Source: a virus
Lineage: Duplodnaviria > Caudoviricetes
Reading direction: 5' to 3' (one strand)
Length of the DNA stretch: 64,000 bases
IMG/VR virus record: IMGVR_UViG_3300028832_000146
Span: 440 to 64,439 of that record
Positions 1 through 64,000 of this stretch are shown one piece after another. Within the stretch, counting starts at the first letter, position 1. The number at the start of each line of letters is the position of its first letter. The notes beneath the pieces were generated by a model, which was not told where the DNA came from, searched no databases, and saw only the letters and a list, made by a program, of their open reading frames with translations. Position numbers and translations under genes: made by a program.

Positions 1-525
1 TATCTTTCATATTGCGATCATCGATTAAAAGAAGTAGTAAGATGTAAATATGTTATAAGATACATGGACGATATTGTTATTTTATGAAAAAGCAAAAAGC
101 GATTAAGATATGTTTTTCGCAGATTAAAATGATATTTGGACGGTTGCTTGAATTTAAGAATTAAACCAAATTATCAAATATTCCCAACTGGTGTGAGATG
201 AGTGGATTATGTTTGATACAGATATTTTTACGGTTATAAATTATTGAGAAAATCAACCGCACAGAAATTCAAAAAGAAAGCATTACACCTAAAAGAAAAA
301 CAAGAAATGTGAATTGTTTTTAATTTTAGAGAATGGTGTGCAATGAATAGTTATGTTGGACGAATGTTTCATTGTAATTCATACAGATTATTTGAAAAAT
401 ATATTGATCCAATAATTCCCAGCATGAACAGATATTATTATTACGAAATCGGAAATAAAAAGAAAAACAAGCTGAAAAAGTATTACAGAAAATTGATTCG
501 TAAGAAATACAAGTCAAGAAAATAA
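1..525 (+). CDS. DGR reverse transcriptase, C-terminal part (5' end outside window)
   Basis: Frame 1 reads YLSYCDHWLKE..RYMDD..NYQIFP..GVDYVGY..SYVGWMFHCNSY with TGA=Gly and CGA=Trp; paralog of 31385-31903. Confidence 0.95.
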
Positions 526-530
526 ATTTA

Positions 531-562
531 AAGCTTTGATATTTGACATTCGTGATTATATT
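531..562 (+). promoter_or_regulatory. Conserved late-promoter-like motif upstream of the lysis module
   Basis: AAGCTTTGATATTTGACATTCGTGATTATA(T/A)T, recurring at 15120, 31917 and 48732. Confidence 0.6.
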
Positions 563-598
563 ATACATGACAAAATTTTACTTTTTATGTAAAGCAAA

Positions 599-883
599 AT
601 GAAATTATCAGCAACAACAACCAGTTCATCAATAGTTGATTTAATTAATGATGATGAAGTATTAGCATTAATTGAAGCAAAAAGAAATGCAAATGAACCA
701 ATTGAAATTGAAATAAGTGTTTGATCATGAGATTCAGTTTTTGTTGAAACAATATCAGATGAAGCTTCAACAACAAATTCTTATGAAGTAACAAGCACAT
801 TCAGATTTAAAACATATCAATTGGATCAAGTTTTTGTAATTGCAAGTGATAGCACAGATTTTAACATTCAAATCGTTTGATAA
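599..883 (+). CDS. Conserved hypothetical protein, 94 aa
   Basis: Open with TGA=Gly; homolog at 31997-32278. Confidence 0.8.
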
Positions 884-884
884 A

Positions 885-1115
885 ATGGAAATTTCACCAG
901 ATACAAGTTTAATTATAAATCTTTGAACGCTTATTGCATGTGCATTCTTTCTTCGGAAATTGAGTGCAAATATTACAAAATTCAAAGAAAAAACTGAAAT
1001 GGAATTAAAAAGTCACAATGAAAGAATAAATGAAATTGAATCATTGGATTTGAAAGCAATATTGATGAAAATTCAAACGGATTTGGAACGAATAAAGGAA
1101 AATATGCACAAATAG
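885..1115 (+). CDS. Small membrane/coiled-coil protein of the lysis module (XhlA/holin-like)
   Basis: N-terminal TM segment then coiled coil; CGG here aligns with TGG in the B homolog. Confidence 0.6.
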
Positions 1116-1158
1116 AAATAAACGTTGCAGAAAATTTTTTACATTCAATACATACCTA

Positions 1159-1374
1159 ATGAAACGAATTACAAAACTTTCAGTTACAAAATTGGTTTTA
1201 TTATTGTTGGTATTAACATTAATTGTAATTGAATTATACAAAGTTTTTAAAGGTTCTGAATTAGATCAGATTTTTGTTGATACTGTATTAATGGTTATTT
1301 CTTTTTACTTTGGACAAAAAGGAATAAAATACGATAACGTGGATTCAATAATGGAAGAAGAAAACAAGGAATAA
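1159..1374 (+). CDS. Putative holin
   Basis: Two TM segments, SFYFG motif, charged C-terminus; next to the peptidase. Confidence 0.7.
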   Translation: MKRITKLSVTKLVLLLLVLTLIVIELYKVFKGSELDQIFVDTVLMVISFYFGQKGIKYDNVDSIMEEENKE

Positions 1375-1403
1375 TTCTTTTATTCCCTATTAAATACGAT
1401 GAA

Positions 1404-1772
1404 ATGAAAAATAATCATGATCGTATTGATCATATTGATAATTGTGACGGTGTGCAGTATAAATTGGTGCGTGTAATTGATAAAACAGCAACAGACATTC
1501 ACCATATAATGTGAAAATGCAACAAGCATAAATACAACACCAATATTGATGAAAACAAAGTAAGAATTTCAAGAAGATTACATGTTGCATTAAATGGATT
1601 TTTTGGAGACAAACAAAACCCAAGAGATCAATTAAAGCAAGTTTTCGAAATTGTGAAGCCAGTATTGAGTGAATGAGTAAAACAAGAACTTTATACAATA
1701 CTGTATGAAGCAGATGATGAATTGTTTTACATACCAGAATTATTGAAGAAATGAAAGAAAAAGAAAAAATAA
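1404..1772 (+). CDS. HNH-like (beta-beta-alpha-metal) protein
   Basis: DIHHIMG..N..RRLHVALN pattern; same slot as the HH-motif protein at 32958. Confidence 0.45.
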
Positions 1773-1915
1773 ACGATTATGAATACAAACATTTGAGAAT
1801 ATGCAAGCATAACATACAACGTGAAAGTTGCAGAAATTGTTTATTTGAAGTGCTTTGTAGATTAGAATGAAATGATATTCACGATCAAAAGAAGATTTCA
1901 GAGCAGAAATGATAA
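1751..1915 (+). CDS. Small Cys/His-rich protein, unit A only
   Basis: CKHNIQRESCRNC in a 54-aa ORF. Confidence 0.45.
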
Positions 1916-1944
1916 AGAAATTTTTAAATTATAACAATAAAAAC

Positions 1945-2811
1945 ATGGAAGAAGAAATTATTTATGGTTGTTTGTGAACTGGTGAAGAAGCAACCGATTA
2001 TGTTCTTTGTGACGGTGATATTGATATATTGCCAAAGCTTTATAAACAAGATGAAATCAGATTTGAATACAATCAAGCGAATCAAAGTTGGAGTAAAGTT
2101 TCATGCACAATATTCAGTGCAATGTGAATGCTTTCAGATTTGATGAATTATGAATTTTCACTTGATGAATTACAAGAAGTTGACGAATTATCATACACAA
2201 AATGAAGAATCCGTTGACATGGTTGGTATGTAAAGCAAGCCGTTGATCTTGTTTGTAAATGGTGGAACGAAAAACATGGTGATTTATGAAAAGTTGCATA
2301 TTACAGAGTTTCAAAATATTCAGATATGGTGGATCAGATACTTGAAAAATGATACACAATAAACGGTAATTTTTGCCCAACAGCAGAATACAGCCAAGAT
2401 TACAGAAAAGACGCAGTATTGGATTGAACAGAATTTTGAACAAATACCAATGGACATGCAATTGATATAATCTGGAATAATTGAAAAAGAAGCACAAAAG
2501 ATTCATACAAATGAAGAAAAACAAGTGATTGAAAAAAAGATTGCAACAGATACGAATTAAAGCATAAATTATCAGAATTATCAAATTATGGAATGTGGTA
2601 TTATGTATTTACAAAGGTTGCAGAAGATAACCTTGAAGAATTAAAAAGATTAAACGAAATTAAAGCAAAAATAAATGAAGTAATGCCAATAAATTCACAA
2701 TTGCGACATTTAACAAATTCAGAACCTTATAAAAATAAATTACATGAAGCAAATAATATGTTGCGTGAATGGTTGGATTATATCAATTGAGAAATAATAA
2801 ATCTTTCATAA
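1945..2811 (+). CDS. Papain-like cysteine peptidase, candidate endolysin
   Basis: YNQ..SCTIFSA (Gln/Cys), NGHAIDI (His), KDSY; follows the holin; homolog at 33261. Confidence 0.65.
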
Positions 2812-2866
2812 AAAAAGATTTTGCAATTTGTATGTTTTTTCGTAATATATCTTTGCAAATGTGTAG

Positions 2867-2897
2867 ACAGAACGCAAGTTCTGTTTTCTTTTTTTAT
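2867..2897 (+). terminator. Intrinsic terminator after the lysis module
   Basis: ACAGAAC-GCAA-GTTCTGT plus T tract; conserved at 34184-34212. Confidence 0.75.
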
Positions 2898-2937
2898 CTG
2901 AAAAATTAAATCAGACAAAGAAAATCTGAATTCAAGC

Positions 2938-2996
2938 TTGATTTTACTATTGACAAAAATTAAAATATATACATTGCATAAGTAATGCGTAGAGCC
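2938..2996 (+). promoter_or_regulatory. Recombinase promoter with operator-like motif
   Basis: TTGATT-17 bp-TAAAAT, then TTGCATAAGTAA at 2974-2985; conserved in B. Confidence 0.6.
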
Positions 2997-3025
2997 AAAT
3001 ATATTTATTTGTTTATTTTTTCAAA

Positions 3026-3952
3026 ATGAAAAATTTGCTTTATGACTTTTTGCAATATTCCAAAGATATCAATTACAGATCAAGCGACACATTGGTTCAT
3101 TATAAATACGATATGTTAAAATTTATTGAATTCATGAAATACAAAAAATGAAAATTCGAAATAAACGTTGAAGATGTAAAATTCGCAGATTGTATTGAAC
3201 GGCTTGAAACATACAAAGAAAACAGAAAAGTTTCAAGAAGCACACTTTCAACATTATCAAATTCTTTACGCCAATTTTTCAAATACAGTGCAATGATCTG
3301 AAAAAAATTACAATTTAACGTTGAACAATTACCAATTATTAAAAAAGAACGCAAACCATACGATATGATGAAAAAAGAAGAATATGAAATATTGGTTCAA
3401 GCACCATTAATTTATGAAGAATCACCAATACTTGCAGAAAGGAATCAATTATTAATCGAAATACCATACAGAACATGATTACGCCGTGCAGAAATATTAC
3501 GTTGCAAATTCGAACATTTCCACAATGAAAACCGCCAATTCCAGATATTATGAAAAGGCGGTTATCATGATCGAGTATTTTTTACCGAAGATTTAAGAAA
3601 TAAAGTTTTGCATTTTGAAGAAAGTATAAAAGAATTCACAAAAAAAAGACCATTCAAAATGGATTTTTTATTTGTTTGATTAGATAATAAAAATCGATGA
3701 AAGCCACTTGCACCAAAATATATTAATATTTTATTCCGTAAATATTCCGAACATCTTATAAATGAATGAAAGATTACAAGAGTATTACACCCGCACATGG
3801 AACGCCACGCATTCGCCACAAATTGCGTTTATGCTTGATTAAGCCAGCAAGCAACAACACGTTTAATGCGTCACCGTGATCCAAAAACCACTGAATGATA
3901 TTATCACATGAATGATACATGGTTAAAATCACAATTTGATAAAATATCATAA
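3026..3952 (+). CDS. Tyrosine recombinase (XerC/D-like, 308 aa)
   Basis: TGLRRAE, GKGG, HPHMERHAFAT, MRHRDPKTTEGYY catalytic motifs. Confidence 0.9.
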
Positions 3953-4074
3953 CATATTTTTTTCAAAAGTAAAATTTTTCGAGCTTTTCGGAAAAATCGA
4001 ATAGTTTAAAAATATAATTCATAACTGTAATTTTTTATTGCAGTAATTTTCTTATTAAAAAAGTGCAAAAAAAT

Positions 4075-4102
4075 TTGACAAATAAAAAATTTTTCTTATA
4101 CT
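4075..4102 (+). promoter_or_regulatory. Early promoter
   Basis: TTGACA-16 bp-TATACT; B has TTGCAT-16 bp-TATAAT at 35394-35421. Confidence 0.65.
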
Positions 4103-4248
4103 TGATATTGTCAAACAAGATATTAACACATTTGCTGAAATTTCTTGATCTTGTTATTCATTACTCTAATCGGTTGGATTGTTTCCACACACTCACCATA
4201 TAGAGAATATCAGTGTGTTGGAGTAAATGAATAAATATATAAGAAACC

Positions 4249-4279
4249 AAGCGGTGTGATAATATCACATCGCTTTTTC
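4249..4279 (+). terminator. Terminator inside the early leader
   Basis: AAGCGGTGTG/CACATCGCTT plus T tract; compensated equivalent at 35528-35560. Confidence 0.7.
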
Positions 4280-4342
4280 GTAATTACTTATGCAAAAGGT
4301 TCTACAATACAAAAAGCATGTAAGTTTGACAAAGAAAACAGA

Positions 4343-4426
4343 GCTTGCGTGCGTTTCAAAGCAACCATACGAATCAGTTGGGGAAATCAGCACGCAAGCG
4401 ATCCAACTGGTTCATATGGTTGTTTT
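4343..4426 (+). ncRNA. Structured leader RNA (long hairpin plus pseudoknot) upstream of the initiator
   Basis: ~23-bp stem 4358-4381/4403-4426; loop 4390-4399 complementary to 4343-4352; covaries with the B copy. Confidence 0.7.
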
Positions 4427-4498
4427 AATTTGTTTCAGTTCACATATGAGCCGTTGCACCACTACACACATTTTATTTTCTAAAACAAGGTTCTACAA

Positions 4499-5254
4499 AT
4501 GAATGAAGAATTAGAAAGAATTACGATTTTCAATTCTTATGTAAGAAGCATTGACCAGCTTGCAAGATGAGATATGCAACTTGCACAAGAGCTTTCTTAT
4601 TGGATCATTCAATTCTGAATTAAATGAATCGAGCCACCAGCAGATTCAAACCCGTTCATGCTTTCAGTATTCGAGCAAATCAAAGAGCCGTTAATGAATG
4701 GAAGAAAAAAATCAATGAACGGTAAAACAAAATCAAAATCAGATGAAGAAGAAATCAAAGAAGAAACGGAAATTGAAGAAAAAAAATCAAAACAAAATCA
4801 AAATGAAATCAAAACTGAATCAAAAGAAAATCAAAACGAAATCAAACCGTGACAAAATATAAAATATAAAAGAAAAAAGAAAAAAGAAGAAAATAATATT
4901 TCATTATCTAACGATAATGAAAGTGCAAGCACGGGAGATTATTGAGATTCAGAAATTAACGAATGTTTGGAAATTATTAAATCGTTTAATGGTTGAATAA
5001 TTGATTGAACACAAAAATCAAATCGTATTCGGTGAAAAAATTTAATTTGAAAACTTAAAAAATCGGAATTTGTGCAAAATCAGAATTACACACGGCAAAA
5101 CACTTTAACGGCGGTGTTGAACGTGGTTGCACAAAACAAGTTTTATGTGAGCAAGATTACATCACCAGAATTGATTTATAAAAATTTAGCAATTTTATTT
5201 CAAGTTTGCAGACAAGAATGAATGAATCAAACACCACAAATTGAAGTGCTTTAA
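4499..5254 (+). CDS. Putative replication initiator
   Basis: Conserved N-terminus, repetitive AAATCAAAA-rich centre, divergent C-terminus; first gene of the early operon. Confidence 0.6.
4725..4848 (+). repeat. Iteron-like AAATCAAAA repeats inside the initiator gene
   Basis: Several tandem aaatcaaaa/gaatcaaaa units; similar run at 36030-36085. Confidence 0.5.
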
Positions 5255-5565
5255 AGGTTTACAAAGAATTGACGTTTGTAATTACAAGGGACGGTGATGT
5301 TTATACAACAACAGCCACGCCAGATCAGATTTCAAAGCTTTGTGAAAAATCAAGGTTCTTGAAATTGTGAAGTGATTACATTGCAGTTGATAGAATTAAA
5401 AAGTTGACCGTAAAGCCAGCAGATGAAATTGACAATGCATTATTGCAGATTTCAGACAAAAATTTACGTGCAAGAGTTCAAGCAGAAGTTGACGAAAGAA
5501 GAAGAACATGATCACGCTTGAACATGGAAATTTATAAAAACATTTTAGATCGTTTCTCGAAATAA
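5218..5565 (+). CDS. Conserved hypothetical protein
   Basis: Homolog at 36506-36835. Confidence 0.75.
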
Positions 5566-5567
5566 AC

Positions 5568-5741
5568 ATGCCAAAAGAAGAAATCGAAAGACTTGAATGA
5601 AAAGTTGGGTTCAAGCTATTCATCAGACGTGTTGGTTTAAAAAACTTTGATGAATATATGCAGTTGTTCGGTAATGATCGAGCAAAAAGACAAACAGCGG
5701 TTGAGTGGTTTATTGAAGAATACCCAAACCAAGCAAATTAA
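5568..5741 (+). CDS. Conserved hypothetical protein, 57 aa
   Basis: Homolog at 36838-37014; CGA aligns with TGG. Confidence 0.75.
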
Positions 5742-5765
5742 TTTTATATCAGTTATTAAGCGAAA

Positions 5766-6377
5766 ATGACAGATAAAGAAACACCAAAATTAAATTTATT
5801 CATGAAAATTCAAACTGTAAAAAGCAAATTGCTTCAAGCGAATTTGAAGAAATCATGAGAGAATAAACATGCATGATTCAAGTATTATGAGCTTTGAGAC
5901 TTTTTACCAGCCATTGTTGAATTATGTAAAGATAACAGATTATACACACAAGTATTATTCGATAACGAAACAGCAACATTATTGATTATTGATTGTGATG
6001 ATCCAACACAAATTGTTCAATATACATCGCCAATGCGTGACGTTGATTTGAAATGATGTCAACCAATTCAAGCATTATGAGCGGTTGAAACCTACCAACG
6101 CAGATATTTATATTTAAATGCGTTTGATATAGTTGAGAATGATACACTTGACGCAGTTGCATGAGATGATAACAAGCAACCAAAGAAAGCAGAAGTAAAA
6201 AAATTCAGTAATGAAGATTTGGAAAGGTTGAAAGCAAAAACAGATTATTTGAAGAAATTTGCAACATCAGATGATTTGTTAAAGGACATTCAAAAGTTCT
6301 TTTCAGTAGATAAAGACATGAAAATGAAAATTGCAGATGTTCGAGCAGAAGTTCCAGAAGAAAAACCAGCAGAATAA
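5766..6377 (+). CDS. erf: ERF-family ssDNA-annealing protein
   Basis: KKSGENKHAGFKYYELGDFLP..GCQPIQALGAVETYQRRYLY..FDIVEND. Confidence 0.85.
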
Positions 6378-6400
6378 TTTACATCTTAAAAAACAAGGTA

Positions 6401-6862
6401 ATGACAAATCAAGATACAATTGAAGAATTCGATGTTGCAGAATTATTACAAAAGCAAGAAAACAACGCAAACGAAGTTGATGAATTAATATCAAAGCACG
6501 AAAAATTCAAAGCAAAGTGATTGAAATTAACAGATCAAGATATGTTTGATCGAGTTGCTTTATGGGAAAATATGAAAGATAAAATTACAGAATTAAAAAG
6601 CACCTATTATGAAGAAAAGCAACAAAACGACGTTAAAAAAGGTGCAAGAATGGTTGAATTAAAAGCAATGTTGAACGAGCAATGAAAAAAAGTTCATACA
6701 GATTCAACAGCAGACGCATTAATAAAGCAAGAATTCCAGCAACGTGATAATGAAATATCAATTCACAAATTGCAAGCAGAATTATTGCAGAATAAAGCAG
6801 ATTGCGTGCTTGAATATATCAACATCGTAAAAATCCACATTAAAAAAGATTTTAGCATGTAA
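6401..6862 (+). CDS. Conserved coiled-coil hypothetical protein
   Basis: Homolog at 37664-38119. Confidence 0.75.
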
Positions 6863-6871
6863 TTTACAAAC

Positions 6872-7099
6872 ATGATAACGTATACAAAAAATAAAATCAT
6901 TGCAGATAATAATTGAAAATCAAAATCAGTGGAAATCGACACGGTATTATGAGCCGTAAAATGAAAAAGCCGATTCCTTGCAAGGTTATGAATTGCAATG
7001 ATCCTTGCAGAAAAATTAGAAATATCATCAAAGCAAGCATTCACGGTTGCATGCACAATGAAAGATGATTTCGAAACCTTTTACAACTTAAACAAATAA
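6872..7099 (+). CDS. Conserved hypothetical protein
   Basis: Homolog at 38131-38355. Confidence 0.75.
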
Positions 7100-7100
7100 A

Positions 7101-7922
7101 ATGAAAAACAAAACAATAATTATTTATGCATTAATCGTTCTATTTATTCTTGTTATGTGATGAATCTTTGTCACATACGCAAGCAATAAACAAGAGCCAA
7201 TCCAAAAAATTTTAAATCAAATTGAAGCCAACGAATCAGAGTTGGAACAGCTTGAAATCAAACAAGCAGAATTAAATCAAGCCAATGAGCAAGCCAAAGA
7301 AGAATTATTGAATAAATATGGATTGCAACTTTCAGAAGAAAAAGAAGAAAAAAAAACAGATTTATCATCAATGCTTTATGATGATAATTGAAACTGTATT
7401 TGATGAATAGGTTGTGAACCTAACGAATGGACACCATGAAAATTAACAGAAAGTGGTGATCATCAAGAAATGCCAGAAATCAAAGCAACAGATGAACACG
7501 AAAGATTCAAAGAACTTGCAACAGCATATTGACTTGACGCAAGCACAATATGGAGTGTTGAAAACCATTATTGAATTAAAGAATGAGTTATTTTATGCAT
7601 AACAGTTGCAGAAACAAGCGGTTGAAATCGTGGTTATGGTGAAAAAAACATATGAAGTGTTTGAAGTAATGATCGTGGTGACCGCCCAACGTATGCTTTA
7701 ATGGAAGCTTGACTTGAAGCAATAGGTAAAACATTAAACAACCAATATTTATGAAGTAAAAAAACTCTTTGATGTTTAAGTAATGCTGGATCATGCAACG
7801 AATCCAACGATAATTGAAAAAGATACGCAACAAGTGAATCAAGCCGAGAAAAAAACATGGTTGCATGTTTATCAACAATTTATGGATCAGTAAACGCCAG
7901 CACGTTTGGTATTAGAAGATAA
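7101..7922 (+). CDS. Membrane-anchored lysozyme-fold (glucosaminidase-like) protein
   Basis: N-terminal TM, coiled coil, LCITVAETSGG..NIGSVG..YATS motifs; homolog at 38359. Confidence 0.55.
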
Positions 7923-7949
7923 TTTTTATTTCATTTATTATTTCAAAAC

Positions 7950-8366
7950 ATGGAAACACCAAAAAATCAAGGGGGGGGGGAGACTTTACAAACCTTTACT
8001 GTAAATCCAGCATTTCTTCTACAAGATATGCCAATTGATTTCTTTGACTTTCAATTCATCATGAATGCAGATTGAACATTAAAGGAAACAAAATTTAAAG
8101 ATCAGATTTTAGAACCAGCAATTTGAAGTTCATTATTCTTAATTAAAGAGAAATACTTCAAAAAGGTAAAACAACATAAAATTGACAAAAAGAAGATTGA
8201 AAGCCACAAACAAGAAAAAGAAAACATGCTGAACGCATGGAAAATTCAAAAAGAACATTATCAGTGACACATCAGATACCAAGAAAAAGCATTATGAGAA
8301 AAGAACAGATTATTAAAAGCAATATGATTAATTGCACACAATGTAGAAAAAGTAAATCAGAATTAA
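7950..8366 (+). CDS. Conserved hypothetical protein with a G10 tract at codons 8-11
   Basis: In frame through G7971-7980; homolog at 39149 also has G10. Confidence 0.8.
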
Positions 8367-8391
8367 TCTTTATTTCATAATTAAACAAAAC

Positions 8392-8994
8392 ATGTTTGAA
8401 CGAATTAAAAAATTATTCATGAGAAAATGAATAAGCAAGGTGGTTGTTGATACATTAAGAGAGCAAAACCACCGCTTAAAAGAAAGAGTTGCAGAATTAG
8501 AGCAAGCAACCGAAAAGAAATTTTGTTCACACTGTAAGGAACGAAAACCAATTACAGAATTTAATAAAAATTGTTCGAAAAGAGATTGATTACAAAGTCA
8601 GTGTAAAGAATGCCACAAAGCAATGATGAGCAGAACGCCAAAAAAAGAATTGCAAGAATGCAAGTTCACGCCGTTTGAAAAAGAATATTACGGCGGGCGT
8701 GTTGTTGTAAGTGAAAGATATTTCACATACGAAGTAAATGGAATTGTTTATGTATTAATTGATTCATTCAGATTTAATTATTTGTGCGAAAAATTCTGAA
8801 AAGAAATGGTGAAATTGAAAATCGAACAGATGATTAAATACAACAATAAAAACCACCTTTGGAAATCAAATTATGATTATTATTACAGATTAAAAGCACG
8901 ATGTCAGAAAGAACAGATATTACAAGATGAAAAACAGCAATTAAATTTATTTCAAAACCAAGATTTAGAATGAACGCACAATGTTCAATCGTAG
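8392..8994 (+). CDS. Zinc-finger protein
   Basis: CSHCKEWKPITEFNKN..DGLQSQCKEC; homolog at 39593. Confidence 0.7.
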
Positions 8995-9362
8995 ATTATT
9001 GGAAAGAACATTGATGATGAAGATATTGAAAAGTAAGTTACAGTTGCTTTTACGATAGGGTGAAGCATTGACGAAGTCGAGAAGAAGCAATCCAAAAACA
9101 AACAAGGAAATATTGCAACAGTGTTTACAAGCCAAAACAACATGCACAAACAAAAAACGAATTAAAGCCAGAATATTCATGAATTAATATCACATACAGC
9201 AAAGAAGAAGCAAAAGTTTTTAAAGAAGCATTTGAGAAAATCATCAATGATCTTTTAAAGAAATACGAATCAATAGAAGAACCGCAAGAAGCAAATAAAA
9301 TATTTGAAAAAATTGAAAAGGTGAAAGCAGATTATCAAATATTTTTACATCACAATTCATAA
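8970..9362 (+). CDS. Conserved hypothetical, possibly DNA-binding
   Basis: RVKHGWSWEEAI motif with CGA=Trp; homolog at 40148. Confidence 0.65.
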
Positions 9363-9366
9363 CAAA

Positions 9367-9639: not shown

Positions 9640-9837
9640 TGCACATATTATTTTCAATATTAACAATATTTCGATCAGTGATTTATTTGATCACGTTAAA
9701 AGATACGAAATTAATAATTGCACTATTATTTGCAATACTTTCAATTGCATATTAAGAAATTCGGAATTTCCGAAAATAGCAGAAAAAACGGAAATTCCGA
9801 TTATTTAAACAATTTTACATCTTAAAAAATCCAGAGA

Positions 9838-54204: not shown

Positions 54205-54213
54205 AAGGTTGTA

Positions 54214-54869: not shown

Positions 54870-55321
54870 TGACAGAAACAACCACATATTCATTTAAGCA
54901 AATCGGGGATACAATATATAATAAAATGCTTGAAATTACAACATGAGAAAATGCAAGAATTTGAGCAGTTTATAACCATGACATAAAAATTGAAAATTGA
55001 ATAAGTTTTCCGGCAATTATCATTACTCCGGACAATGGAAACATAAGATATCTTGATTCTTGCAGTTACGAATCAGAAATTAATTTTACAGTAAGATTAA
55101 TTGACAGAATTCAAGACAGCATTTCAACCGTGGAAGAAAACATGAGAGCGGTTGCAGATATAATGATCCAAAAATTAAAAGAAATTGAATCTATTGTGTG
55201 GAATAATGACGATTGATACACTGTAAAATGTATGTTTACATATAACTGGTGATTTGCAGATACGCAAGAACCAATGAGAGTGTTTAATGTAAATTGTGCA
55301 TTTACCAGTGTTTCAAAATAA
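54869..55321 (+). CDS. Tail terminator (putative)
   Basis: Homolog of 21207. Confidence 0.65.
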
Positions 55322-55345
55322 TTTATCTCTTTATACAATACAAAC

Positions 55346-55540
55346 ATGGCATGCAAATGATGTAAAGAAAAAAAACCGGAAATCGAACAACACGTAAATA
55401 TTGTGATCGATAACGGTGTAAGAAAATATTCATTTCCAAAGTGGGGTTTAATTGTGGAATGAAAAACAATGCTTGAAGCATTAGAGAAAGCAAGGGAAAT
55501 CATGAAGAATAGAGAAAATTCTGAATGAGAAAAAGAATAA
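55346..55540 (+). CDS. Small conserved MACKGCK protein
   Basis: Homolog of 21684. Confidence 0.7.
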
Positions 55541-55568
55541 TTATTTTAATTCATTACCAATTTAAAAA

Positions 55569-56711
55569 ATGGCATACATTGGAAGATTATCAGCAATTTG
55601 ACTTGGAAAAGAAACAACAAGGGGGACAGCAGTTCAACCAGTTGTTTGGATTCCAAAAGAAAGCGGGGTTTTAAATCCAAGCCTTGAAAGTGCAACAGAC
55701 GAATCATGATATGGTGTAATTGACGGGGTTTACGATTCATTTACAACCAAAAATTCTTCAAACTTATCTTTGAGCGGTGTTGCAAGGGATAATTCACTTT
55801 GATATTTATTTCTTGGTGCTTTGTGAAAATACACAAAATTATATTGTGTAACTGGAACGCCAAGCGGTGGAACACCAGCAAGGGGCGACATACTTTCTTG
55901 AACGGGTGCGGTATTAAAGAAAATAATTGTTATTGGAACAACAACTTATTATTTCTTTGATAAAGCAACAAGCGGAAGTATTGGAAACGGAACATGGACA
56001 ATGACAGCAACGGTCGTTTCAATAAATGCACATTTCTTTGAAGTATTACAAAGCAATTCACACCCAACATTTACACTTTACGATGATGATCCAGTTGCTT
56101 GAAGTTATGCTCCATATTGTATGATTAATTCGTTTGAATTATCATGCGAAGTTGCGGATTATGTAAAATTCACAGCCGAGTTTATGTGAAAGCAAATGCA
56201 AGCAATACAAGGAAGCGTAACGCCAGCATATGCAACAGAAAACGCATTTACAGCAAGCATGGCGGGTGTAAGGTTCGCAAGTGATGAAAGCGGTTTGAAT
56301 GGTGCAAGTGAACAATGCATGCAAAATTTCAGACTTTCAATTAATAAGAATTTAACAGATATTCAGTGCTTTGGTGACACAGATGTTGCAGATATATACA
56401 ACCAACAATTCGGAATCGAAGGAGATTTTGAAGCCGTTTATGAATCAACAACATTGCGTGATTACGTGTTAAATTCACAGAAAAAAGCAATGAGATTTTA
56501 TGCAGTAAATGGAAATGCAACAGCATTGGCAACATGAATTTATCCTTCAATCTATATTGATTTAATGAAGGTTGGAATGAATGAATGGAGCAAATCAGAC
56601 GGAAACGATGAAATAATCAAACAAACAATGGGATATACTGGACAATACAACAATGATGACGGTTGCTCAATCGAAATCTTGTTATTAAATAACAATTCAA
56701 CTGGATATTAA
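55569..56711 (+). CDS. Major tail tube protein
   Basis: Homolog of 21906. Confidence 0.8.
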
Positions 56712-56797
56712 TATATCCACGTGCTTGCAGTTTTTCCTTGTTTCTCTGTAAGCACGTATTTCAAAACAAGGAATTTTAACTTATAAACAAGGAAAAC

Positions 56798-57088
56798 ATG
56801 AAAGTTACAATTAATGGAAACGAAAAAGAAGTTATCGTTTCAACAACTTATACAAGAAAAATTGACCGTGGTTACAACGACATAATTCTTGAATGAGTAA
56901 AAGCGAATCCGTCGCAATTAGAAAACATGAATATTGAAATTGATGTTACAAGAGCACAAAAAGCAAATGATTTTTTGATTACAGAAATGACAAATTTAAC
57001 AGCGGAAGAATTGGAAAATATGAATATGGAAGATTACAACGCAGTATTGCAAGAAGTGCTAAAAGTAAAAATACCCAGTGAAAAATAA
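56798..57088 (+). CDS. Tail assembly chaperone (gpG-like)
   Basis: Homolog of 23134; ends ATA CCC AGT GAA AAA TAA. Confidence 0.8.
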
Positions 57089-57329
57089 TTTAATACTGGA
57101 ACAATTTTGAAAAACTTTGAGAACATGACACGGATTAACAAAAGAACACCGCGATTATATTCTCATTAAAGAATTATATCATTGCAAGCCGTCGGATTTG
57201 GACAATGAAGACGAGCACATATTGGATTTACATTTTGCAATGATCCAAGAAGAAAGGAAACGGGAGCATATCCAAAATAAGAGAATGGAACAAAAAACAA
57301 GGGTTGTTTCATCACATAATAAGCAATAA
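57075..57329 (+). CDS. Chaperone extension (gpT-like), +1 frame
   Basis: Homolog of 23411-23659. Confidence 0.75.
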
Positions 57330-57331
57330 AC

Positions 57332-59086
57332 ATGGCATGAGTTGAATATGATTTGAAATTAAAAATCACGGCGGAAAACCAAGCAACCGCCGAGCTTCAA
57401 AAAATGAATTCGCAAATTACAAACATTGGTAAAGTTATTTGATGACGGGCAGTTTGAAAAACTTTATTAAAGGGTGTAAAAAATGTTGCGGACGAAGTTT
57501 TAACGTTATGATGAAATTTGGAACAAGCGGAAGTTGCTTTTACAACCATGCTTTGAAGTGGGGAAGAAGCAACCAAAATGTTAAAAGATTTAACAAATTT
57601 TGCGAAGAAAACACCATTTGAATTGACTTGAATTAGGGATAATGCGAAACAATTATTGTGAATGTGAATTGAAGCGGAAAAAATAATTCCAACATTAAAA
57701 AGTTTGGGTGACGTTTCCGCATGATTAAGTATTGATTTAAGCCGTGTTGCTTTGAATTACGGACAAGTAAGAAGCCAAGGAAAATTGACTTGAAGGGAAT
57801 TAAGGGATTTTATGATTCAATGAGTTCCTTTATTGGACGAATTATCAAAAAACCTTGGGAAAACAACAACTGAAATTCAAGACATGATCAGTAAAGGATT
57901 AATCACATTTCCAATGGTTGAAGAAGCTTTTAAAACCATGACAAGCGAAGGTGGAAGATTCGCAGATTTAATGGATAAACAAAGCCAAACATATCAAGGA
58001 ATGGTTTCAAACTTGCATGACAGCTTCACATCAATTAAAGAATCAATTTGACGTGCAATATTACCAATTCTTGAAAGAATATTACCAATAATTGCAAATA
58101 TTGTGGAAAAAATCGCCGATTGGGTTGAAGCAAATCCAGAATTAGCGTCAACATTAACCGTTATTGTTGCGGGTGCGGTTGCGTTGGTTGGTGTTTTGTC
58201 TTGACTTGGTGCAATTATTCCAATTGTGAGTGCTTGAATGTCAGTTTTAACTTGACCAATTGGGCTTGTTGCGGGTGCGATTGCATTATTAGCAACAGCA
58301 TGGATTAATGATTGGGGTGGAATAAGGGAGACAACGGCGGAAGTTACGGAAAAAATAAGTGCGATACTTTGACCATGGTTTGAAAAGTTGCATAATTGGT
58401 GGGTTGAACATGGAGAAACTGTAATGATCTATGTGGAAGAAATAATGGGTGCAATTGCAGATACAATCGGAACATGTCTTGAAATTATCGCAGTTACAAT
58501 CGCCGGAACACTGGAAACAATCCAAGCATGAATTGCAATTTTCAAAGCAATTTGGAATGGTGATTGGGAAGAAGTAAATAATATTGCGGTTGGTTGGGCT
58601 CAAAACATCGACGCATTATTAACCGAAGCTTTTGGTGATTTATGGACAAACATAAAAAATGCTTTTAGAGAATGAATTGACACGGTTTTGGGTTGGGTTG
58701 AAAGTTTTGTTGGTGCAATTGAAGGTGTTGTTGAAAGGATCAGAAATGCATGGAACAACGTAAAAAGTGCGGCTCAAAGTGTTGTTTCAAGTGCAAAAAG
58801 CAAATACGACAGTGCGGTTGCTTCATTAAAAAGTTTGGTTTCATGAAAAAAAGCCGGTGGTTGACCAGTTGTAATGTGAAACACATATTTGGTTTGAGAA
58901 AAGTGACCGGAGCTTTTTGTTCCGAACCAAAGCGGAAAAATAATCCCAAATAATGAAATTACCAACAATAATTGAATTACAATAAATATTTCATGAGTAA
59001 GCGTGAGAAATGATAACGATATTACAGCTATTGCAAATGAAATGATCAGACAAATAAAGTTGGAAAAACAATTTAATATTGCATAA
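57332..59086 (+). CDS. Tape measure protein, 584 aa
   Basis: EQAEVAFTTMLGS..FAKKTPFEL tape-measure domain. Confidence 0.9.
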
Positions 59087-59113
59087 AACATTTATTACAT
59101 ATAACAATTAAAA

Positions 59114-59947
59114 ATGGACAACATACTACTTAACAGCGGTTTATTATGAAATGCACCAAAGGGGAAGAAAAGCACATTTTTGGAAAGTGGTATGTTTATT
59201 TTTAATTGATACAATTTGCATAATTGAAAAACAAGAAGGGTGCTTGAATCAAACCATGATGACCTTGGAAATGTTGCATATGAAACATACGATTATTCAA
59301 GGGCGGATTGATGAAATGCATTGAGTAAATATTACAGAACAAAAACAATTACATTAACCATGTGTTTGAGTGCGGACGATGAAAACGGCTTGAATGACTT
59401 AATTGATGAATTGAAGTTTCAAACAAGTAAAATGCAAGGTTATTTGGATATAATTATTAATTGACTTGTTAGAAGGTGGGAAGCAACATTGACAAGCTTG
59501 CAGTTCGGAAGAAAAGGTTATAATATTAATTTCTTGCAAAATGTGGTTTTAACTTTTGAATGCGTGAATCCGTCAGCTTTCAATTTAACAAGTATTACAA
59601 ACAGATATTCGGGATTATCCGGAAATTATGCGACAGAATTAAATTATTCTTGAAAAGTGAATTGTTACCCAACAATTTATATTGTGGTGCAAAATGAAAC
59701 AAATTTGACATGATTTCAAATTGACATGAATGGTTATAAATTCCAAATTTCGGGGGAATATCAAGCCGGAGATTTTATAATAATTGACGGAGAAACAAAG
59801 CTTGTAAAAGTAAATGGAACAACAACGGCGTATACATGACCATTTCCAGTTATTGAACCATGATTAAACCACATTGAAATTAGCATTAATTCGGGAGCAA
59901 TTGCGAATTACGACATGATTTTTATTTATAAGAAATTATTCTTGTAA
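59114..59947 (+). CDS. Distal tail protein (Dit-like)
   Basis: Homolog of 25712. Confidence 0.7.
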
Positions 59948-60951
59948 TGATCAGATACGATATAAAAGCATATACAAAAGAAGGAACATATATTACAACC
60001 ATTAATCCAAATGTTGTTATGAATGACATATCTTTTTCTTCAAACGTAAACGGGGGGCTTGGACAATTGAATTTAAACCTTGCGTTGAGTTTTGGGGATA
60101 CAACGTTTCATGGTGGGGAAATAATAAAAGTAATATTGTATAATGAAAGATACAAGCAAGGAAAACAGATTTATATGTGATTTGTTTCGCAAATTTCAAG
60201 GGTGTATGATACAAACAAAGGATATATAAAACTGGTTTGTTTGTGAATTGCGAGTTTATTAACAAGCGTATTGTTTACATGATCATATAACGGAACAGCG
60301 GAAACAATATTGAATGCAATTATTGCAGAATTCAACAGCAATTACGCTTGAAGTTTAATTTCAGTTGGTGGAATTGATGAATACGAAGAAAATATAAATG
60401 TGGAATTTAAAGATTGAACCAGTTGCCAAAAAGCAATCGAGCAAGTAAACGAAATCGCCAATTATTACCGGTTTATAAATGCAGAGTGAAAGTTCTATTT
60501 CAGAAAAAAGGGAACACAAACCGAGCATATCATGGCGAATAAACAAGAAGTTGAAAGCATGAATTTAAATTACAGCATTGAATCAATTGTAAACAGAATA
60601 TTTGTTTCAAGAAAAGACGGAACAGTAAAAATGTATGAAGATAATATTTCGCAAGGTTTATATGGAATAAAAGAAGAATACAGCAACCAGCAAAGCATAG
60701 TGGACGAAACAACGCAAGACGAATTTGGAAATAATTATATTGCCCAATATTCAAATCCAAAGAACGCAAGCACGGTGGTTGTAAATAGCGAATATGATAT
60801 TGAAAAAATTGAACCGTGAGACACAATAACAATTGTAAATTCAGAATATGAAATAAAGGATTTAACAATTGAAAAAATCAATTATTCTCCAAGTAAAGTT
60901 ACGTTGACTTTGGAAGAAAACGAAAGTTTATGGAGTGTAATTAGCGAATAA
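59947..60951 (+). CDS. Tail hub protein (Tal-like)
   Basis: Homolog of 26545. Confidence 0.7.
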
Positions 60952-60986
60952 AAGCCAAATTATTTTATATCTTATTATATTATATC

Positions 60987-63413
60987 ATGGTATTTGTGAA
61001 ATTCAGAAACACCAATAATGCAAGTTCAACACTTATTGCCGATATATCAGTAAGTGCAACAGCATTATTAATTAAAGATTGAGATCAATCTTTATTTCCA
61101 ACCAATTTTCCATTTCTTTTGACTTTGGAACATTTGGATTCAGAAGAAAATGTTATTTTAAGGGAAATCGTAAAAGTAACATGAAGTAACCAAAATTCAT
61201 TTACAGTTGAAAGAAGTGCGGGGGTTTGTGTTCAAGACGACACAGCTTCAAATAGAAGCCAAGACAACACAGCACATGCATTTTATTCATGAGATAGGGT
61301 TTCGCTTTATTGGACAGCCGAACAAGTAAGGGATATTCAAGAAAGATTGGAAACAAGCGTAAATGATCCAGCAATTGCGGACGAATACGATAATACAGCA
61401 ACATATGCAGTTTGAGATATTGTAATGTATAAGGGGGACAGATATTCATGCTCAACAGCCGTTTCAACACCGGAAGATTTTGACAGCACGAAATGGACAA
61501 AAATTTCGGTTGAATATAATCTCGATTCGCTTCAAACTCAAATTGACGATCTCGCAAGTCAAAGCGGTGCGAGTGACCATTTGGAAGATGAATGACTCGT
61601 TTGATCTTATTATGAAATAACTGATCCAATGTTCAGACAGTTGACAACAACTTATGACAACGCTTCAGTTGACGCGAACGTTTGAGATACAAACGCAAGC
61701 ACGGAAATTCATATTCAAAGACAAGGAAGCGGAACGGCAAGCAATCAATTAAAATTAAAAGTTAAAATGGCTTGATCACCAACAACAAGTTTGGTTGTCG
61801 AAGTAAGGAAATGAATTTCAGTTATAAATACGAATAAAAAAAGTTCTTATTGGTATTGAGACTCGAATAATGTTATTGCAACGGCTACTTTGCCATATAC
61901 AACATTTTCAAGTTCTTATCAAGAAATAACAGTTGCTTTAAATGAATCTTTTGGTTGAACTGAATGAGAATTATTGGACGTTGTTATTTATCAAGCAAGC
62001 CATATAGTAAACGCCAGCAATTATTATGTTGTCGCTTGCGATTCAACGCAACAATCCGACGCATTCCAATATTTAAAAATGGCGAACGATTACGAAACTA
62101 TAAAACAAACAGCGAATATTCCATATTGTGTTTCAGATTGATTCGCGAATATTTTATTGACAAGAGTTTCAACGACTGGTGCTTATGCGTTGCCAAGAAA
62201 TTTGAAAACATTATGAGAAAAAGCGAAGTTGACAACTTTGGGAAGACATACGGACGGGGTTTGGTTGGATCATAAATCCGAAGACACTATTGATTATATT
62301 CATTGATGATACAGCACATGGACGATTAAATGGTCTGAAACTTCAACGCCAGCGAGTGCTTTTGTAGATTACGAAGACGACGCAGAATGAATGACGCAAG
62401 GAAGTTCAGACTGGGACGCAATTTTCGGTTTTGAGTGAGTAAGATTAAACACTTCTTGAGTTGAAACTTGAAGCGTAGATTTAACAAATATGTCGAGTGA
62501 ATCATGATTGACTTCATGAGATAATGTTATGGTAAAATTTCCTATTCGTTGAATTAAAATGACAAAAAGTGGTTCAACTTGCACTTTATCAATAACAAAT
62601 AATCCAAACGCCGAAGACGAATGATTTCAATATTATGCACATTCTCGTTGAACTTTATCAAGCCCAGTAAAGAAAAACGCCTTTTATTTATGAGTTTATG
62701 AATGAAGTCTTTCAAGTTCGGTTTTGAAATCTTTATCGGGTGCGACAGTCGAATCAAATCACACAATGTGAGATTTTATAGGTTATGCAAGGGCGAACGA
62801 TTGAAATTCTTGAAATGGTGGTTATGACATAGTTTGATTCTATCAAAGAATGTATATAAACGCTTTATATATGATGAAATATTGAAATATTGATTCTCAA
62901 TGAACTATCGGACAATGAATCGTTTCATGATCAAAACAAGCGTCATGATGAAGTAATTCAATTGCGGGTGCTACTGGTTGAAATACTTGAAATCAAACAA
63001 GCTACATGAAATTATTCGGACTTGAAAACTGGTGGTGAAATGTTTCTGAATGGCTTGGTTGAATTTGCACAGATTGAAGCAAAAATTTATGGACAGCACT
63101 TCAAGGATTCGCCGGAGATATAACAACAAGTTCGCCATACGAAAATACTTGAGTGACTATAACGACAACAAGTTGAAACGATCTTTCAAGTATATCATGA
63201 GATAATAAAGCTATGTTTGCACCGCTTTGAACGGTAAATAATTCAAGCTACAATACTTATTATTGCGATTATGTGTATGTGAGTGCTTCTTGTTTGGCTC
63301 GTGCCGGTGGTTATTATAGTATTGGTGCGCTTGCTGGAGCTTTCTTTTTGGATGTGAAGTATTCCGCTTCGAGTTCGAATACGGATATCGGTTCTCGCTT
63401 AATGTTCCTTTAG
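60987..63413 (+). CDS. Receptor-binding protein, DGR target, 808 aa
   Basis: Homolog of 27581 with C-terminal VR. Confidence 0.85.
63264..63413 (+). repeat. DGR variable repeat VR-B
   Basis: 18 mismatches at TR-B adenines and 2 non-A mismatches before the IMH. Confidence 0.95.
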
Positions 63414-63503
63414 CGAAGCGTAAGCGAAGCCCCCCTTTCCGTCGCTTGCGACGGTCAACCACTTCAACTCTGCCGAAGGCTTTTTACTTCACGCGATCAA
63501 AAA

Positions 63504-63695
63504 ATGAAAATAAATATTCAAATTGAAACAAACGACAAAAATCAAGAATATACTTTGTGACCTTATGGGGAGTGGGAACTCCCCAAAGAGTCCGAAGTAA
63601 ATATAATAATAAAAAATAATCCGTCCGAAGATGACATAAATCAAGAAGTCGAAAGAAGAATAAGGGAAAAGAAAATCAAGGAAATAAAAATATAA
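63504..63695 (+). CDS. Small ORF between VR and TR, 63 aa
   Basis: MKINIQIETND..; positional counterpart of 30105. Confidence 0.55.
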
Positions 63696-63805
63696 AAAAT
63701 TTTTGGGTTATATGGTCGAAGACGAGTTAAAAATTACGTTTTCGCCTTTGTTGGCTATACGACTGTAAACAAACCATGTATAAGCTCAATGGGGATTGTA
63801 AAAAT

Positions 63806-63955
63806 TGCGATAATGTGAATGTGAATGCTTCTCGTTTGGCTCATACCAGTGGTAATTATAGTAATGGTGCGAATGCTGGAACTTTCTATTTGAATGTGAA
63901 TAATTCCACTTCGAATTCGAATACGAATATCGGTTCTCACTTAACGTTCTTTATA
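63806..63955 (+). repeat. DGR template repeat TR-B
   Basis: Differs from TR-A at 5 positions. Confidence 0.95.
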
Positions 63956-64000
63956 AATTCCCTATTTTAATTCAAAACCTATGATGTGCTTGATTTTTCC

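What the first reader, a model, noticed from the sequence alone, without database searches (positions are those of the whole stretch)
1..64000. Phage genomes with three reassigned codons: TGA=Gly, CGA=Trp, CGG=Trp
Seen: TGA aligns with GGN between paralogs (e.g. TMP GAA-TGA-GTT vs GAA-GGT-GTT). CGA/CGG repeatedly align with TGG in the other unit: RT DH[CGA]L at 19-21 vs TGG; head protein KK[CGG]LTVGD vs TGG; tail tube V[CGA]I; fibre Y[CGA]TAE. They also fill family Trp positions (RT HRIIQ-W-AIM, NinG-like N-WW-HKNP, moron KKWWF-W-V). The catalytic Arg codons I checked (recombinase, TerL, RT) are CGT/CGC/AGR. Established: UGA=Gly in SR1/Gracilibacteria; CGA/CGG=Trp reported for Absconditabacterales (Codetta screen). 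Inference: these are Absconditabacterales phages fully adapted to the host code genome-wide, with no matching tRNA of their own. Code-25 annotation would mistranslate many Trp residues as Arg.
Basis: partly seen in the sequence, partly recalled or inferred. Interest (0 to 1): 0.8.

Follow-up and report, generated by a model that had tools for sequence, protein, structure and literature searches.

The report
Phages using host's three-codon code change
The window holds two related ruminant-gut phage genomes that read TGA as glycine and CGA/CGG as tryptophan, the code already predicted for their likely Absconditabacterales hosts, so standard pipelines mistranslate about 4% of their residues.

Summary

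**Codon evidence**
- TGA occurs 639 times in frame.
- Between the two ~32-kb units, CGA/CGG pair with TGG 22 times and never with CGT/CGC/AGA/AGG.
- Across 41 related phage loci, 48 of 71 CGA columns and 32 of 43 CGG columns also hold TGG. Two of each hold an Arg codon.
- A Codetta-like likelihood against outside homologs (RT, TerL, MuF, integrase) gives CGA=W, CGG=W, TGA=G and CGT/CGC/AGR=R.

**tRNAs and host**
- The phages carry no tRNA for the three codons.
- A relative is integrated beside tRNA-Gly in a 1.1-Mb patescibacterial MAG. That MAG has a Gly-type tRNA(UCA) and Trp-type tRNA(UCG)/tRNA(CCG).
- Host genes of that order also swap CGA/CGG with TGG.
- No CRISPR spacer match or junction was found for this phage itself.

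**Novelty and practical point**
- The host code is published (Shulgina & Eddy 2021), and code-25 use by Absconditabacteria phages is published (Liu 2023).
- I found no paper reporting CGA/CGG=Trp in phages, so this is a new member of a known kind.
- The public translation of the window's integrase is wrong at 12 of 308 residues.

**Contig structure**
- Read depth suggests the 64-kb record is two co-occurring genomes joined by the assembler.

The parts
1..30629 (+). Unit A: one ~32-kb temperate tailed-phage genome, all genes on +. It starts inside its RT gene, which begins in the 439 bases before the window.
   Evidence: Repeat map, Pfam. Depth differs from unit B in three runs, and the X1 contig leaves the window at 30629.
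30630..64000 (+). Unit B: a second, related phage genome, 75-90% nucleotide identity to A. It runs from the RT gene to the DGR template repeat.
   Evidence: By depth the A-to-B switch lies between 30629 and 31331.
22..24 (+). CGA in RT of unit A (CDH-W-LKE). Unit B has TGG at 31406-31408.
   Evidence: The homolog column has W in 108 of 116 sequences.
31061..31063 (+). CGG in RT of unit B, position 91 (RIIQ-W-AIM).
   Evidence: W in 104 of 116 homologs. The 12 with R all come from TGA-recoded genes read with code 4.
31745..31747 (+). CGA in RT of unit B, position 319.
   Evidence: W in 114 of 116 homologs.
13042..13044 (+). CGA in TerL of unit A, position 244. Unit B has CGG at 46404-46406.
   Evidence: Clade column: TGG 19, CGA 17, CGG 2. 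Outside homologs: W in 67-68 of 110.
16410..17237 (+). MuF-like head morphogenesis gene of unit A (B copy at 50026-50844). All 8 Trp positions line up, 6 of them as CGR against TGG.
   Evidence: Outside MuF homologs have W in 29 of 30 and 29 of 29 at two of these columns. Pfam PF04233.
27905..27907 (+). CGA in the tail fibre (SLY-W-TAE). Unit B has TGG at 61311-61313.
21984..21986 (+). CGA in the tail tube protein. Unit B has TGG at 55647-55649.
3026..3949 (+). Tyrosine integrase of unit A, with 9 TGA and 3 CGR codons. The B copy is at 34344-35273.
   Evidence: Pfam PF00589. The public translation P0121 has W at all 9 TGA and R at all 3 CGR.
12313..13776 (+). Large terminase of unit A (B copy at 45675-47138).
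   Evidence: Pfam Terminase_6C. 34 related viral loci and 5 MAG contigs.
15180..19629 (+). Portal, MuF-like protein, prohead protease and major capsid protein of unit A.
   Evidence: Pfam PF04860, PF04233, PF04586, PF05065.
21906..30007 (+). Tail tube, tape measure, distal tail proteins and the 809-aa fibre. The fibre's 3' end is the DGR variable repeat.
   Evidence: Pfam PF18906. TR/VR alignment.
30371..30600 (+). DGR template repeat of unit A. The B copy at 63771-64000 is 96% identical.
30791..31900 (+). DGR reverse transcriptase (complete copy).
   Evidence: Pfam RVT_1. PDB 8ub7, E = 6.7e-29.
44874..44943 (+). Degenerate tRNA-Gly(UCC)-like element. It is not a decoder of TGA, CGA or CGG.
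   Evidence: Rfam tRNA 23.5 bits, below the 29-bit cut-off. Fold. Not called by ARAGORN.

Best explanation
The window holds two related, temperate, DGR-bearing tailed-phage genomes from ruminant gut. Their genes are written throughout in the code TGA=Gly, CGA=Trp, CGG=Trp, with TAA/TAG as the only stops and CGT/CGC/AGA/AGG still Arg.

The phages encode no tRNA for these codons. Translation must therefore rely on the host's tRNA-Gly(UCA) and Trp-type tRNA(UCG)/tRNA(CCG), and on a host that lacks UGA termination. That restricts them to Absconditabacterales-type hosts.

Shown here: the codon meanings, the absence of phage tRNAs, the tRNA set and codon behaviour of the candidate host order, and integration of a relative in such a genome. 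Inferred: that this particular phage infects a member of that order, and that the tRNAs are charged as their identity elements suggest.
For: 1. In frame: TGA 639, CGA 91, CGG 44 and TGG 145 times. Coding density is 91% with TAA/TAG as the only stops.

2. A versus B codon pairs:
- CGR-TGG 14 at well-flanked columns; 16 over all aligned CGR positions, plus 6 in MuF.
- CGR with an Arg codon: 0.
- CGT/CGC with AGR: 20.
- TGA with GGN: 117.
- The CGR-TGG pairs run from 954 to 28925, through early, packaging and tail genes.

3. 41 related loci, 31 gene families, 6700 columns:
- CGA columns: 48 of 71 also hold TGG, 2 hold Arg codons.
- CGG columns: 32 of 43 hold TGG, 2 hold Arg codons.
- CGT columns: 80 of 96 hold other Arg codons, 0 hold CGR.

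4. Likelihood against outside homologs:
- CGA is best read as W, with R worse by 21-24 nats.
- CGG is best read as W, with R worse by 18 nats.
- TGA=G, and CGT/CGC/AGA/AGG=R.
- Invariant Arg columns of RT and TerL never hold CGR.

5. Among 120 RT homologs, R at Trp-conserved columns occurs in 19. All 19 also show W at Gly-conserved columns, meaning TGA read by code 4. None of the 98 others shows it. p = 2.6e-19.

6. No tRNA in the window. No UCA, UCG or CCG tRNA in the 44 related loci scanned.

7. Host evidence:
- MAG G001 has tRNA(UCA) with G1:C72, C2:G71, G3:C70 and U73.
- It has tRNA(CCG) and tRNA(UCG) with G73, A/G1:U72 and no A20.
- Its Arg tRNAs (GCG, UCU, CCU) have A20 and A73.
- Its contig C50 reads tRNA-Gly(UCC), integrase, then TerS and a TerL 66% identical to the window's.
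- The same prophage in L024 has diverged host flanks that include a thioredoxin-reductase-like gene.
- PepF orthologs of 17 genomes of that order swap CGA/CGG with TGG, for example columns {CGA 9, TGG 7} and {CGA 4, TGG 13}.
- GC and codon usage match: host TGA 421, CGA 36 and CGG 4 per 10,000 codons; window 330, 31 and 16.

8. Published: CGA/CGG to Trp plus UGA to Gly in Absconditabacteria (PMC8629427).
Against: - There is no protein-level evidence. All of it is comparative.
- Several CGR codons sit at variable columns where outside homologs have N, M, I, L, K or Y rather than W. Examples are RT 70, 79 and 305, and integrase 183 and 224. These neither support Trp nor Arg.
- Host assignment rests on relatives at 64-70% TerL identity.
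- No CRISPR spacer or attachment-site match was found for this phage.
- 3 of the 5 MAG contigs with close TerL relatives lie in bins labelled as other taxa. These are probably mis-binned whole-phage contigs.
Calling it Absconditabacterales is inferred from its code.
Confidence: 0.93

Rival explanations
1. CGA/CGG are still Arg (plain code 25), and the CGR-TGG pairings are chance or alignment artefacts.
For: Database proteins show R at these positions, but those are translations, not observations. A few CGR columns align with K/R-rich columns, such as integrase 224.
Against: There are 0 CGR pairings with CGY/AGR against 22 with TGG between the units. The clade-wide statistics and the likelihood favour W by 18-24 nats. 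Alignments were made with CGR masked as X, so they cannot be biased towards W.
Confidence: 0.02
2. The code call is right, but the host is a UGA=Gly lineage outside Absconditabacterales, such as BD1-5/Gracilibacteria. Some of those were predicted to read CGG as Trp.
For: Shulgina & Eddy note CGG=Trp predictions in some Gracilibacteria. No direct spacer or junction was found for this phage.
Against: CGA is the commoner of the two reassigned codons in the phage, and CGA=Trp was reported only for Absconditabacteria. The order that holds prophage relatives uses CGA as Trp.
Confidence: 0.07
3. The phage is only partly adapted: CGA/CGG are read ambiguously (Arg/Trp), or the new meaning applies only to some gene classes.
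For: The portal, protease, capsid and connector genes of unit A hold no CGR codon. Shulgina & Eddy say ambiguous decoding cannot be excluded without experiment.
Against: Those genes hold only 5 TGG codons, so 0 CGR is not significant. CGR-TGG exchanges occur in early, packaging, tail and fibre genes. CGR makes up 39-41% of Trp codons in the phages, which is hard to sustain under ambiguous reading.
Confidence: 0.05

Closest known systems
Absconditabacteria (SR1) genetic code: UGA=Gly plus CGA/CGG=Trp (Shulgina & Eddy 2021, eLife, PMC8629427)
   Same: The same three reassignments, low GC (about 31%) and AGA as the main Arg codon. In the candidate host the decoding tRNAs carry the identity elements that paper used.
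   Different: That paper analysed the cellular genomes, not their phages. CGG is commoner in the phage (16-23 per 10,000 codons) than the under-7 per 10,000 reported for all but one host. CGR makes up about 40% of phage Trp codons, against 29% in G001.
Phages of Absconditabacteria/Gracilibacteria using code 25 (Liu et al. 2023, mBio, PMC10746230)
   Same: Phages and prophages with dense in-frame TGA, matched to the host's code.
   Different: That work compared only codes 11 and 25 by coding density. The text never mentions CGA, CGG or arginine. Its code-25 proteins would carry Arg at every CGR Trp codon.
Phages predicted to read AGG as Met alongside AGG=Met Bacilli (Shulgina & Eddy 2021)
   Same: Phage follows a host sense-codon (Arg) reassignment without carrying the tRNA.
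   Different: There it is one codon and another amino acid, in two assemblies, inferred with Codetta only. Here it is two sense codons plus a stop codon, in a clade of at least 40 contigs.
Stop-codon-recoded gut phages (TAG=Gln, TGA=Trp; Borges et al. 2022; Peters et al. 2022)
   Same: Phage genomes with a non-standard code.
   Different: By my knowledge, and as summarised in PMC10746230, those phages differ from their standard-code hosts and often carry suppressor tRNAs, release factors or tRNA synthetases. Here the phage copies the host code and carries no such machinery.

Membership tests
Absconditabacterales-type genetic code (table 25 plus CGA/CGG=Trp) | UGA is a sense codon read as Gly | tested here: met
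   639 in-frame TGA. TGA pairs with GGN 117 times between units. Likelihood gives G, with the next residue worse by 176-195 nats.
Absconditabacterales-type genetic code (table 25 plus CGA/CGG=Trp) | CGA read as Trp | tested here: met
   48 of 71 clade columns with CGA also hold TGG, and 2 hold Arg codons. Likelihood favours W over R by 21-24 nats.
Absconditabacterales-type genetic code (table 25 plus CGA/CGG=Trp) | CGG read as Trp | tested here: met
   32 of 43 clade columns with CGG also hold TGG, and 2 hold Arg codons. Likelihood favours W over R by 18 nats.
Absconditabacterales-type genetic code (table 25 plus CGA/CGG=Trp) | CGU/CGC/AGA/AGG remain Arg; UAA/UAG remain stops | tested here: met
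   Likelihood gives R for all four codons. Gene ends are 95 TAA and 5 TAG.
Absconditabacterales-type genetic code (table 25 plus CGA/CGG=Trp) | Decoding tRNAs: a Gly-type tRNA(UCA), and tRNA(UCG)/tRNA(CCG) with Trp identity (G73, no A20) | tested here: met
   Absent from the phage. Present with these identity elements in MAG G001, which carries a related prophage. Charging was not tested.
Absconditabacterales-type genetic code (table 25 plus CGA/CGG=Trp) | No release factor 2 in the translating cell | not tested
   No prfB search was run on the candidate host genomes.
Phage of Absconditabacterales (host assignment) | Integrated copy flanked by host genes, or CRISPR spacer match | tested here: inconclusive
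   A relative (TerL 64-66% identical) is integrated beside tRNA-Gly, with host flanks. TerL relatives occur in 5 of 141 genomes of that order. For this phage itself no spacer was found: 7 short matches checked, none in an array. No attachment-site match to G001 tRNAs was found either.
Temperate tailed phage (Caudoviricetes, HK97-type head) | Terminase, portal, prohead protease, HK97-family capsid, tail tube, integrase | tested here: met
   Pfam hits PF17289, PF04860, PF04586, PF05065, PF18906 and PF00589.
Diversity-generating retroelement | RT plus a template/variable repeat pair that differs at template adenines | tested here: met
   RT matches PDB 8ub7 at 6.7e-29. TR/VR differences fall at TR adenines in both units. 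An avd gene was not looked for.

The most novel reading that the evidence does not exclude
The three-codon code acts as a hard host-range lock and a usable host marker. A whole clade of ruminant-gut phages (at least 40 contigs here) is confined to Absconditabacterales. They use the reassigned Trp codons even more than their hosts do, so the sense-codon reassignments gave the hosts no lasting escape from phages. Such phages could give the first protein-level proof of CGA/CGG=Trp through virion or metaproteome peptides.
Probability: 0.55. Interest if true: 0.6.

Novelty: new member of a known kind. Interest (0 to 1): 0.55.

Why it matters
1. It gives independent, phage-side support for the CGA/CGG=Trp reassignment, which so far rests on computation in the hosts only.

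2. It shows that phages have fully followed two sense-codon changes plus a stop-codon change. This bears on the idea that code changes protect cells from viruses.

3. It has a practical side. Viral pipelines that test only codes 4, 11 and 15 (as VIRE does through geNomad), or that use code 25, mistranslate these genomes. The public integrase of this very contig is wrong at 12 of 308 residues, and about 4% of all codons in the window are affected.

4. Co-occurrence of in-frame TGA at Gly positions and CGR at Trp positions is a simple host marker for orphan viral contigs.

Tried and rejected
The long contigs carrying integrase homologs P0139-P0145 could not be inspected.
- **CRISPR spacers.** Short near-perfect matches of window 1-20000 to genomes of the host order were checked at 7 places. 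None lies in a repeat array, so they are chance or low-complexity matches. Only the first 20 kb of the window was searched this way.
- **Attachment site.** No 3'-tRNA-like core matching G001 tRNAs was found in the window.
- **The 57-nt hot spot at 4057-4113** is not a tRNA fragment. It is a promoter-like sequence.
- **Naming the order of G001.** NCBI lists it as an unclassified Patescibacteria group bacterium, and no paper mentions UBA3291.
- **PDB alignment of the RT alone.** Only 2 of 5 CGR positions align with W in the Bordetella-phage RT, which is too few sequences. It was replaced by the 116-homolog alignment.
- **Physical dimer.** The idea that the two units are a physical dimer or tandem prophages is disfavoured by depth but not excluded.


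Full report
**What is in the window.**

The window is nearly all of a 64,439-base virus record. It consists of two head-to-tail units of about 32 kb that share 75-90% nucleotide identity, with all genes on the + strand and GC of about 31%.

Pfam identifies a temperate tailed phage. The genes found are a tyrosine integrase, HNH endonuclease, large terminase, portal, MuF-like protein, prohead protease, HK97-type capsid, tail tube, tape measure, a fibre and a reverse transcriptase.

Each unit ends in a diversity-generating retroelement. The 3' end of the fibre gene and a template repeat differ at template adenines, and the reverse transcriptase (RT) follows.

**Check of the observation inside the window.**

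With TAA/TAG as the only stops, ORFs cover 91% of the window. They hold 639 TGA, 91 CGA, 44 CGG and 145 TGG codons.

I aligned the orthologs of the two units with CGA/CGG masked as X, so the alignment cannot favour any residue, and then read off the codon pairs.
- TGA pairs with GGN 117 times.
- CGA and CGG each pair with TGG 7 times at well-flanked columns.
- CGA/CGG never pair with CGT, CGC, AGA or AGG.
- CGT/CGC pair with AGA/AGG 20 times.

Listing all 43 aligned CGR positions gives 16 TGG partners, 13 CGR partners, 11 hydrophobic or aromatic partners, 3 AAA in badly aligned spots, and no Arg codon. The MuF-like gene was dropped by my gene caller. It adds 6 more CGR-TGG pairs, and all eight of its Trp positions line up between the units. 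Fisher's test of TGG against Arg partners for CGR compared with CGY gives p = 2.6e-10.

The pairs lie between 954 and 28925, in early, packaging, tail and fibre genes, so the usage is genome-wide.

One coordinate is off by a codon: the CGA is at 22-24, not 19-21.

**Relatives.**

The terminase finds 34 loci in IMG/VR and 5 contigs in MAGs. Several are about 32 kb long, which matches one unit.

I aligned 31 gene families (6700 columns) across 41 genomes or fragments.

| Codon | Columns holding it | Also hold TGG | Also hold Arg codons (CGY/AGR) | Also hold CGR |
|---|---|---|---|---|
| CGA | 71 | 48 | 2 | 30 |
| CGG | 43 | 32 | 2 | 30 |
| CGT | 96 | 2 | 80 | 0 |
| CGC | 35 | 1 | 28 | 0 |
| TGG | 113 | not applicable | 3 | 56 |

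In this clade CGA, CGG and TGG are synonyms, and they are separate from the Arg codons.

**Outside homologs (a Codetta-like test).**

I collected homologs of the RT, terminase, MuF-like protein and integrase. I aligned them to the phage sequences with CGR and TGA masked, and summed log-likelihoods over columns.

| Codon(s) | Best residue | Margin |
|---|---|---|
| CGA | W | R worse by 21-24 nats |
| CGG | W | R worse by 18 nats |
| TGA | G | next residue worse by 176-195 nats |
| CGT, CGC, AGA, AGG | R | clear in every case |
| TGG | W | control |

Single columns are telling.
- RT position 91 (CGG): W in 104 of 116 homologs.
- RT position 319 (CGA): W in 114 of 116.
- The TerL column holding the window's codon 244: W in 67-68 of 110.
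- Two MuF columns: W in 29 of 30 and 29 of 29.

Invariant Arg columns of RT and TerL are encoded by AGA, AGG or CGT in the window's RT and across the TerL clade, and never by CGR. Some CGR codons lie at variable columns (N, M, I, L, K, Y) and carry no information.

The residual 'R' at Trp columns among database RTs is itself evidence. All 19 such proteins also show W at Gly-conserved columns, meaning they are TGA-containing genes translated with code 4. None of the 98 other homologs has R there (p = 2.6e-19).

**tRNAs.**

ARAGORN finds no tRNA in the window. Rfam finds nothing at gathering score. A degenerate tRNA-Gly(UCC)-like element at 44874-44943 scores below threshold and would not read any of the three codons. 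The 44 related loci scanned hold no UCA, UCG or CCG tRNA. The phage therefore depends on the host for decoding.

**Host.**

One MAG with a relative is G001, 1.1 Mb, titled 'Patescibacteria group bacterium UBA3291'. Its tRNA set is as follows.
- tRNA(UCA) with the Gly identity set: G1:C72, C2:G71, G3:C70 and U73.
- tRNA(CCG) and tRNA(UCG) with G73, A/G1:U72 and no A20. These are the criteria Shulgina & Eddy used for Trp identity.
- Arg tRNAs (GCG, UCU, CCU) with A20 and A73.

Its 25.9-kb contig reads tRNA-Gly(UCC), integrase, ParB-like protein, C5 methylase, radical SAM protein, small terminase, then a terminase 66% identical to the window's.

An IMG/VR contig (L024) carries the same prophage at almost 100% identity up to a tRNA-like core. 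Its tRNA-Gly is only about 95% identical, and its flank is diverged and encodes a thioredoxin-reductase-like gene with recoded codons. This is an integrated prophage in two different host backgrounds.

G003, another MAG with a relative, belongs to the same order. TerL relatives, all with in-frame TGA, occur in 5 of the 141 genomes of that order. In 17 genomes of the order, PepF orthologs swap CGA/CGG with TGG, for example columns {CGA 9, TGG 7} and {CGA 4, TGG 13}.

GC and codon usage agree between host and phage.

| Source | GC | TGA per 10,000 | CGA per 10,000 | CGG per 10,000 | CGR share of Trp codons |
|---|---|---|---|---|---|
| G001 (299 kb) | 30% | 421 | 36 | 4 | 29% |
| Window | 31% | 330 | 31 | 16 | 39% |
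| Related phage loci | 31% | 347 | 37 | 11 | 41% |

The DNA is found in bovine, sheep and goat gut metagenomes of many studies.

The weak points are these.
- No spacer or attachment-site match was found for this phage.
- Three MAG hits lie in bins labelled otherwise.
- The order's name is inferred from its code.

**Literature.**

Shulgina & Eddy 2021 predicted CGA/CGG=Trp plus UGA=Gly in Absconditabacteria. They showed phage adaptation only for the AGG=Met clade. Liu et al. 2023 showed that most Absconditabacteria phages and prophages use code 25, but never mention CGA, CGG or arginine. VIRE reports 'code 4' for some Patescibacteria viruses, taken from geNomad. Full-text searches found no paper reporting CGA/CGG=Trp in phages.

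The finding is therefore an expected but apparently undocumented extension of a known code to a phage clade.

**Structure of the record.**

Depth over unit A (27.5-31.0 kb) and unit B (31.3-35.5 kb) differs within runs and reverses between runs.

| Run | Unit A depth | Unit B depth |
|---|---|---|
| X2 | 44-63x | 9-21x |
| X1 | about 18x (dips to 1-10x across 29.6-30.7 kb) | about 0-2x |
| X5 | 1-8x | 19-30x |

The X1 contig leaves the window at 30629 for a sequence that is absent from the window. The record also starts and ends in the near-identical RT and template-repeat region.

The simplest reading is two co-occurring genomes joined by the assembler. This does not affect the code inference. 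It makes A against B a comparison of two genomes.

**Verdict.**

It is a new member of a known kind. It is of moderate interest to specialists, and has clear practical value for annotation and host prediction.

Noticed in passing
window 27500-35500 (junction near 30629-31331): Units A and B have different depths that vary independently between samples, and one sample's contig leaves the window at 30629. The 64-kb record is probably two phage genomes joined by the assembler in the near-identical DGR template-repeat/RT region.
   Followed up: partly
window 29826-31900 and 63229-64000: Each unit carries a DGR: a variable repeat at the 3' end of the fibre gene, a template repeat and an RT. Template/variable differences fall at template adenines.
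   Followed up: partly
window 4057-4113: A sigma-70-like promoter (TTGACA, 17 nt, ATACTT, with an A-rich upstream part) downstream of the integrase. It matches dozens of places in genomes of the candidate host order at 80-94% identity over about 57 nt, often several per genome. It may be a shared strong-promoter architecture.
   Followed up: partly
window 44874-44943: A degenerate tRNA-Gly(UCC)-like element (Rfam 23.5 bits, below cut-off) with an intact Gly-type acceptor stem and CCA but a distorted anticodon arm. Relatives L024 and L038 sit beside a host tRNA-Gly(UCC), so it may be a relic of integration-site sequence.
   Followed up: partly
L024:1850-2450 and L038:1-560: The same prophage in two host backgrounds. 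Identity jumps to about 100% at a 3'-tRNA-like core (TGGGCGTGGCTGGGCTCGAACC...) about 75 nt from a host tRNA-Gly(UCC). This marks the likely attachment site of that relative.
   Followed up: partly
L027:3366-3796 and L028:5619-5707: More distant relatives (TerL 64% identical, contigs of 47-52 kb) carry tRNA genes (Pro, Asn, Ile, Gln, Ser), none for the reassigned codons. Whether they are phage-encoded or host flank was not examined.
   Followed up: no
window 3026-3949 (protein P0121): The public database translation of this contig's integrase uses TGA=W and CGR=R, so 12 of 308 residues differ from the inferred protein.
   Followed up: yes
window 15180-21656: The portal, protease, capsid and connector genes of unit A contain no CGA/CGG. 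They hold only 5 TGG codons, so this is not significant.
   Followed up: partly
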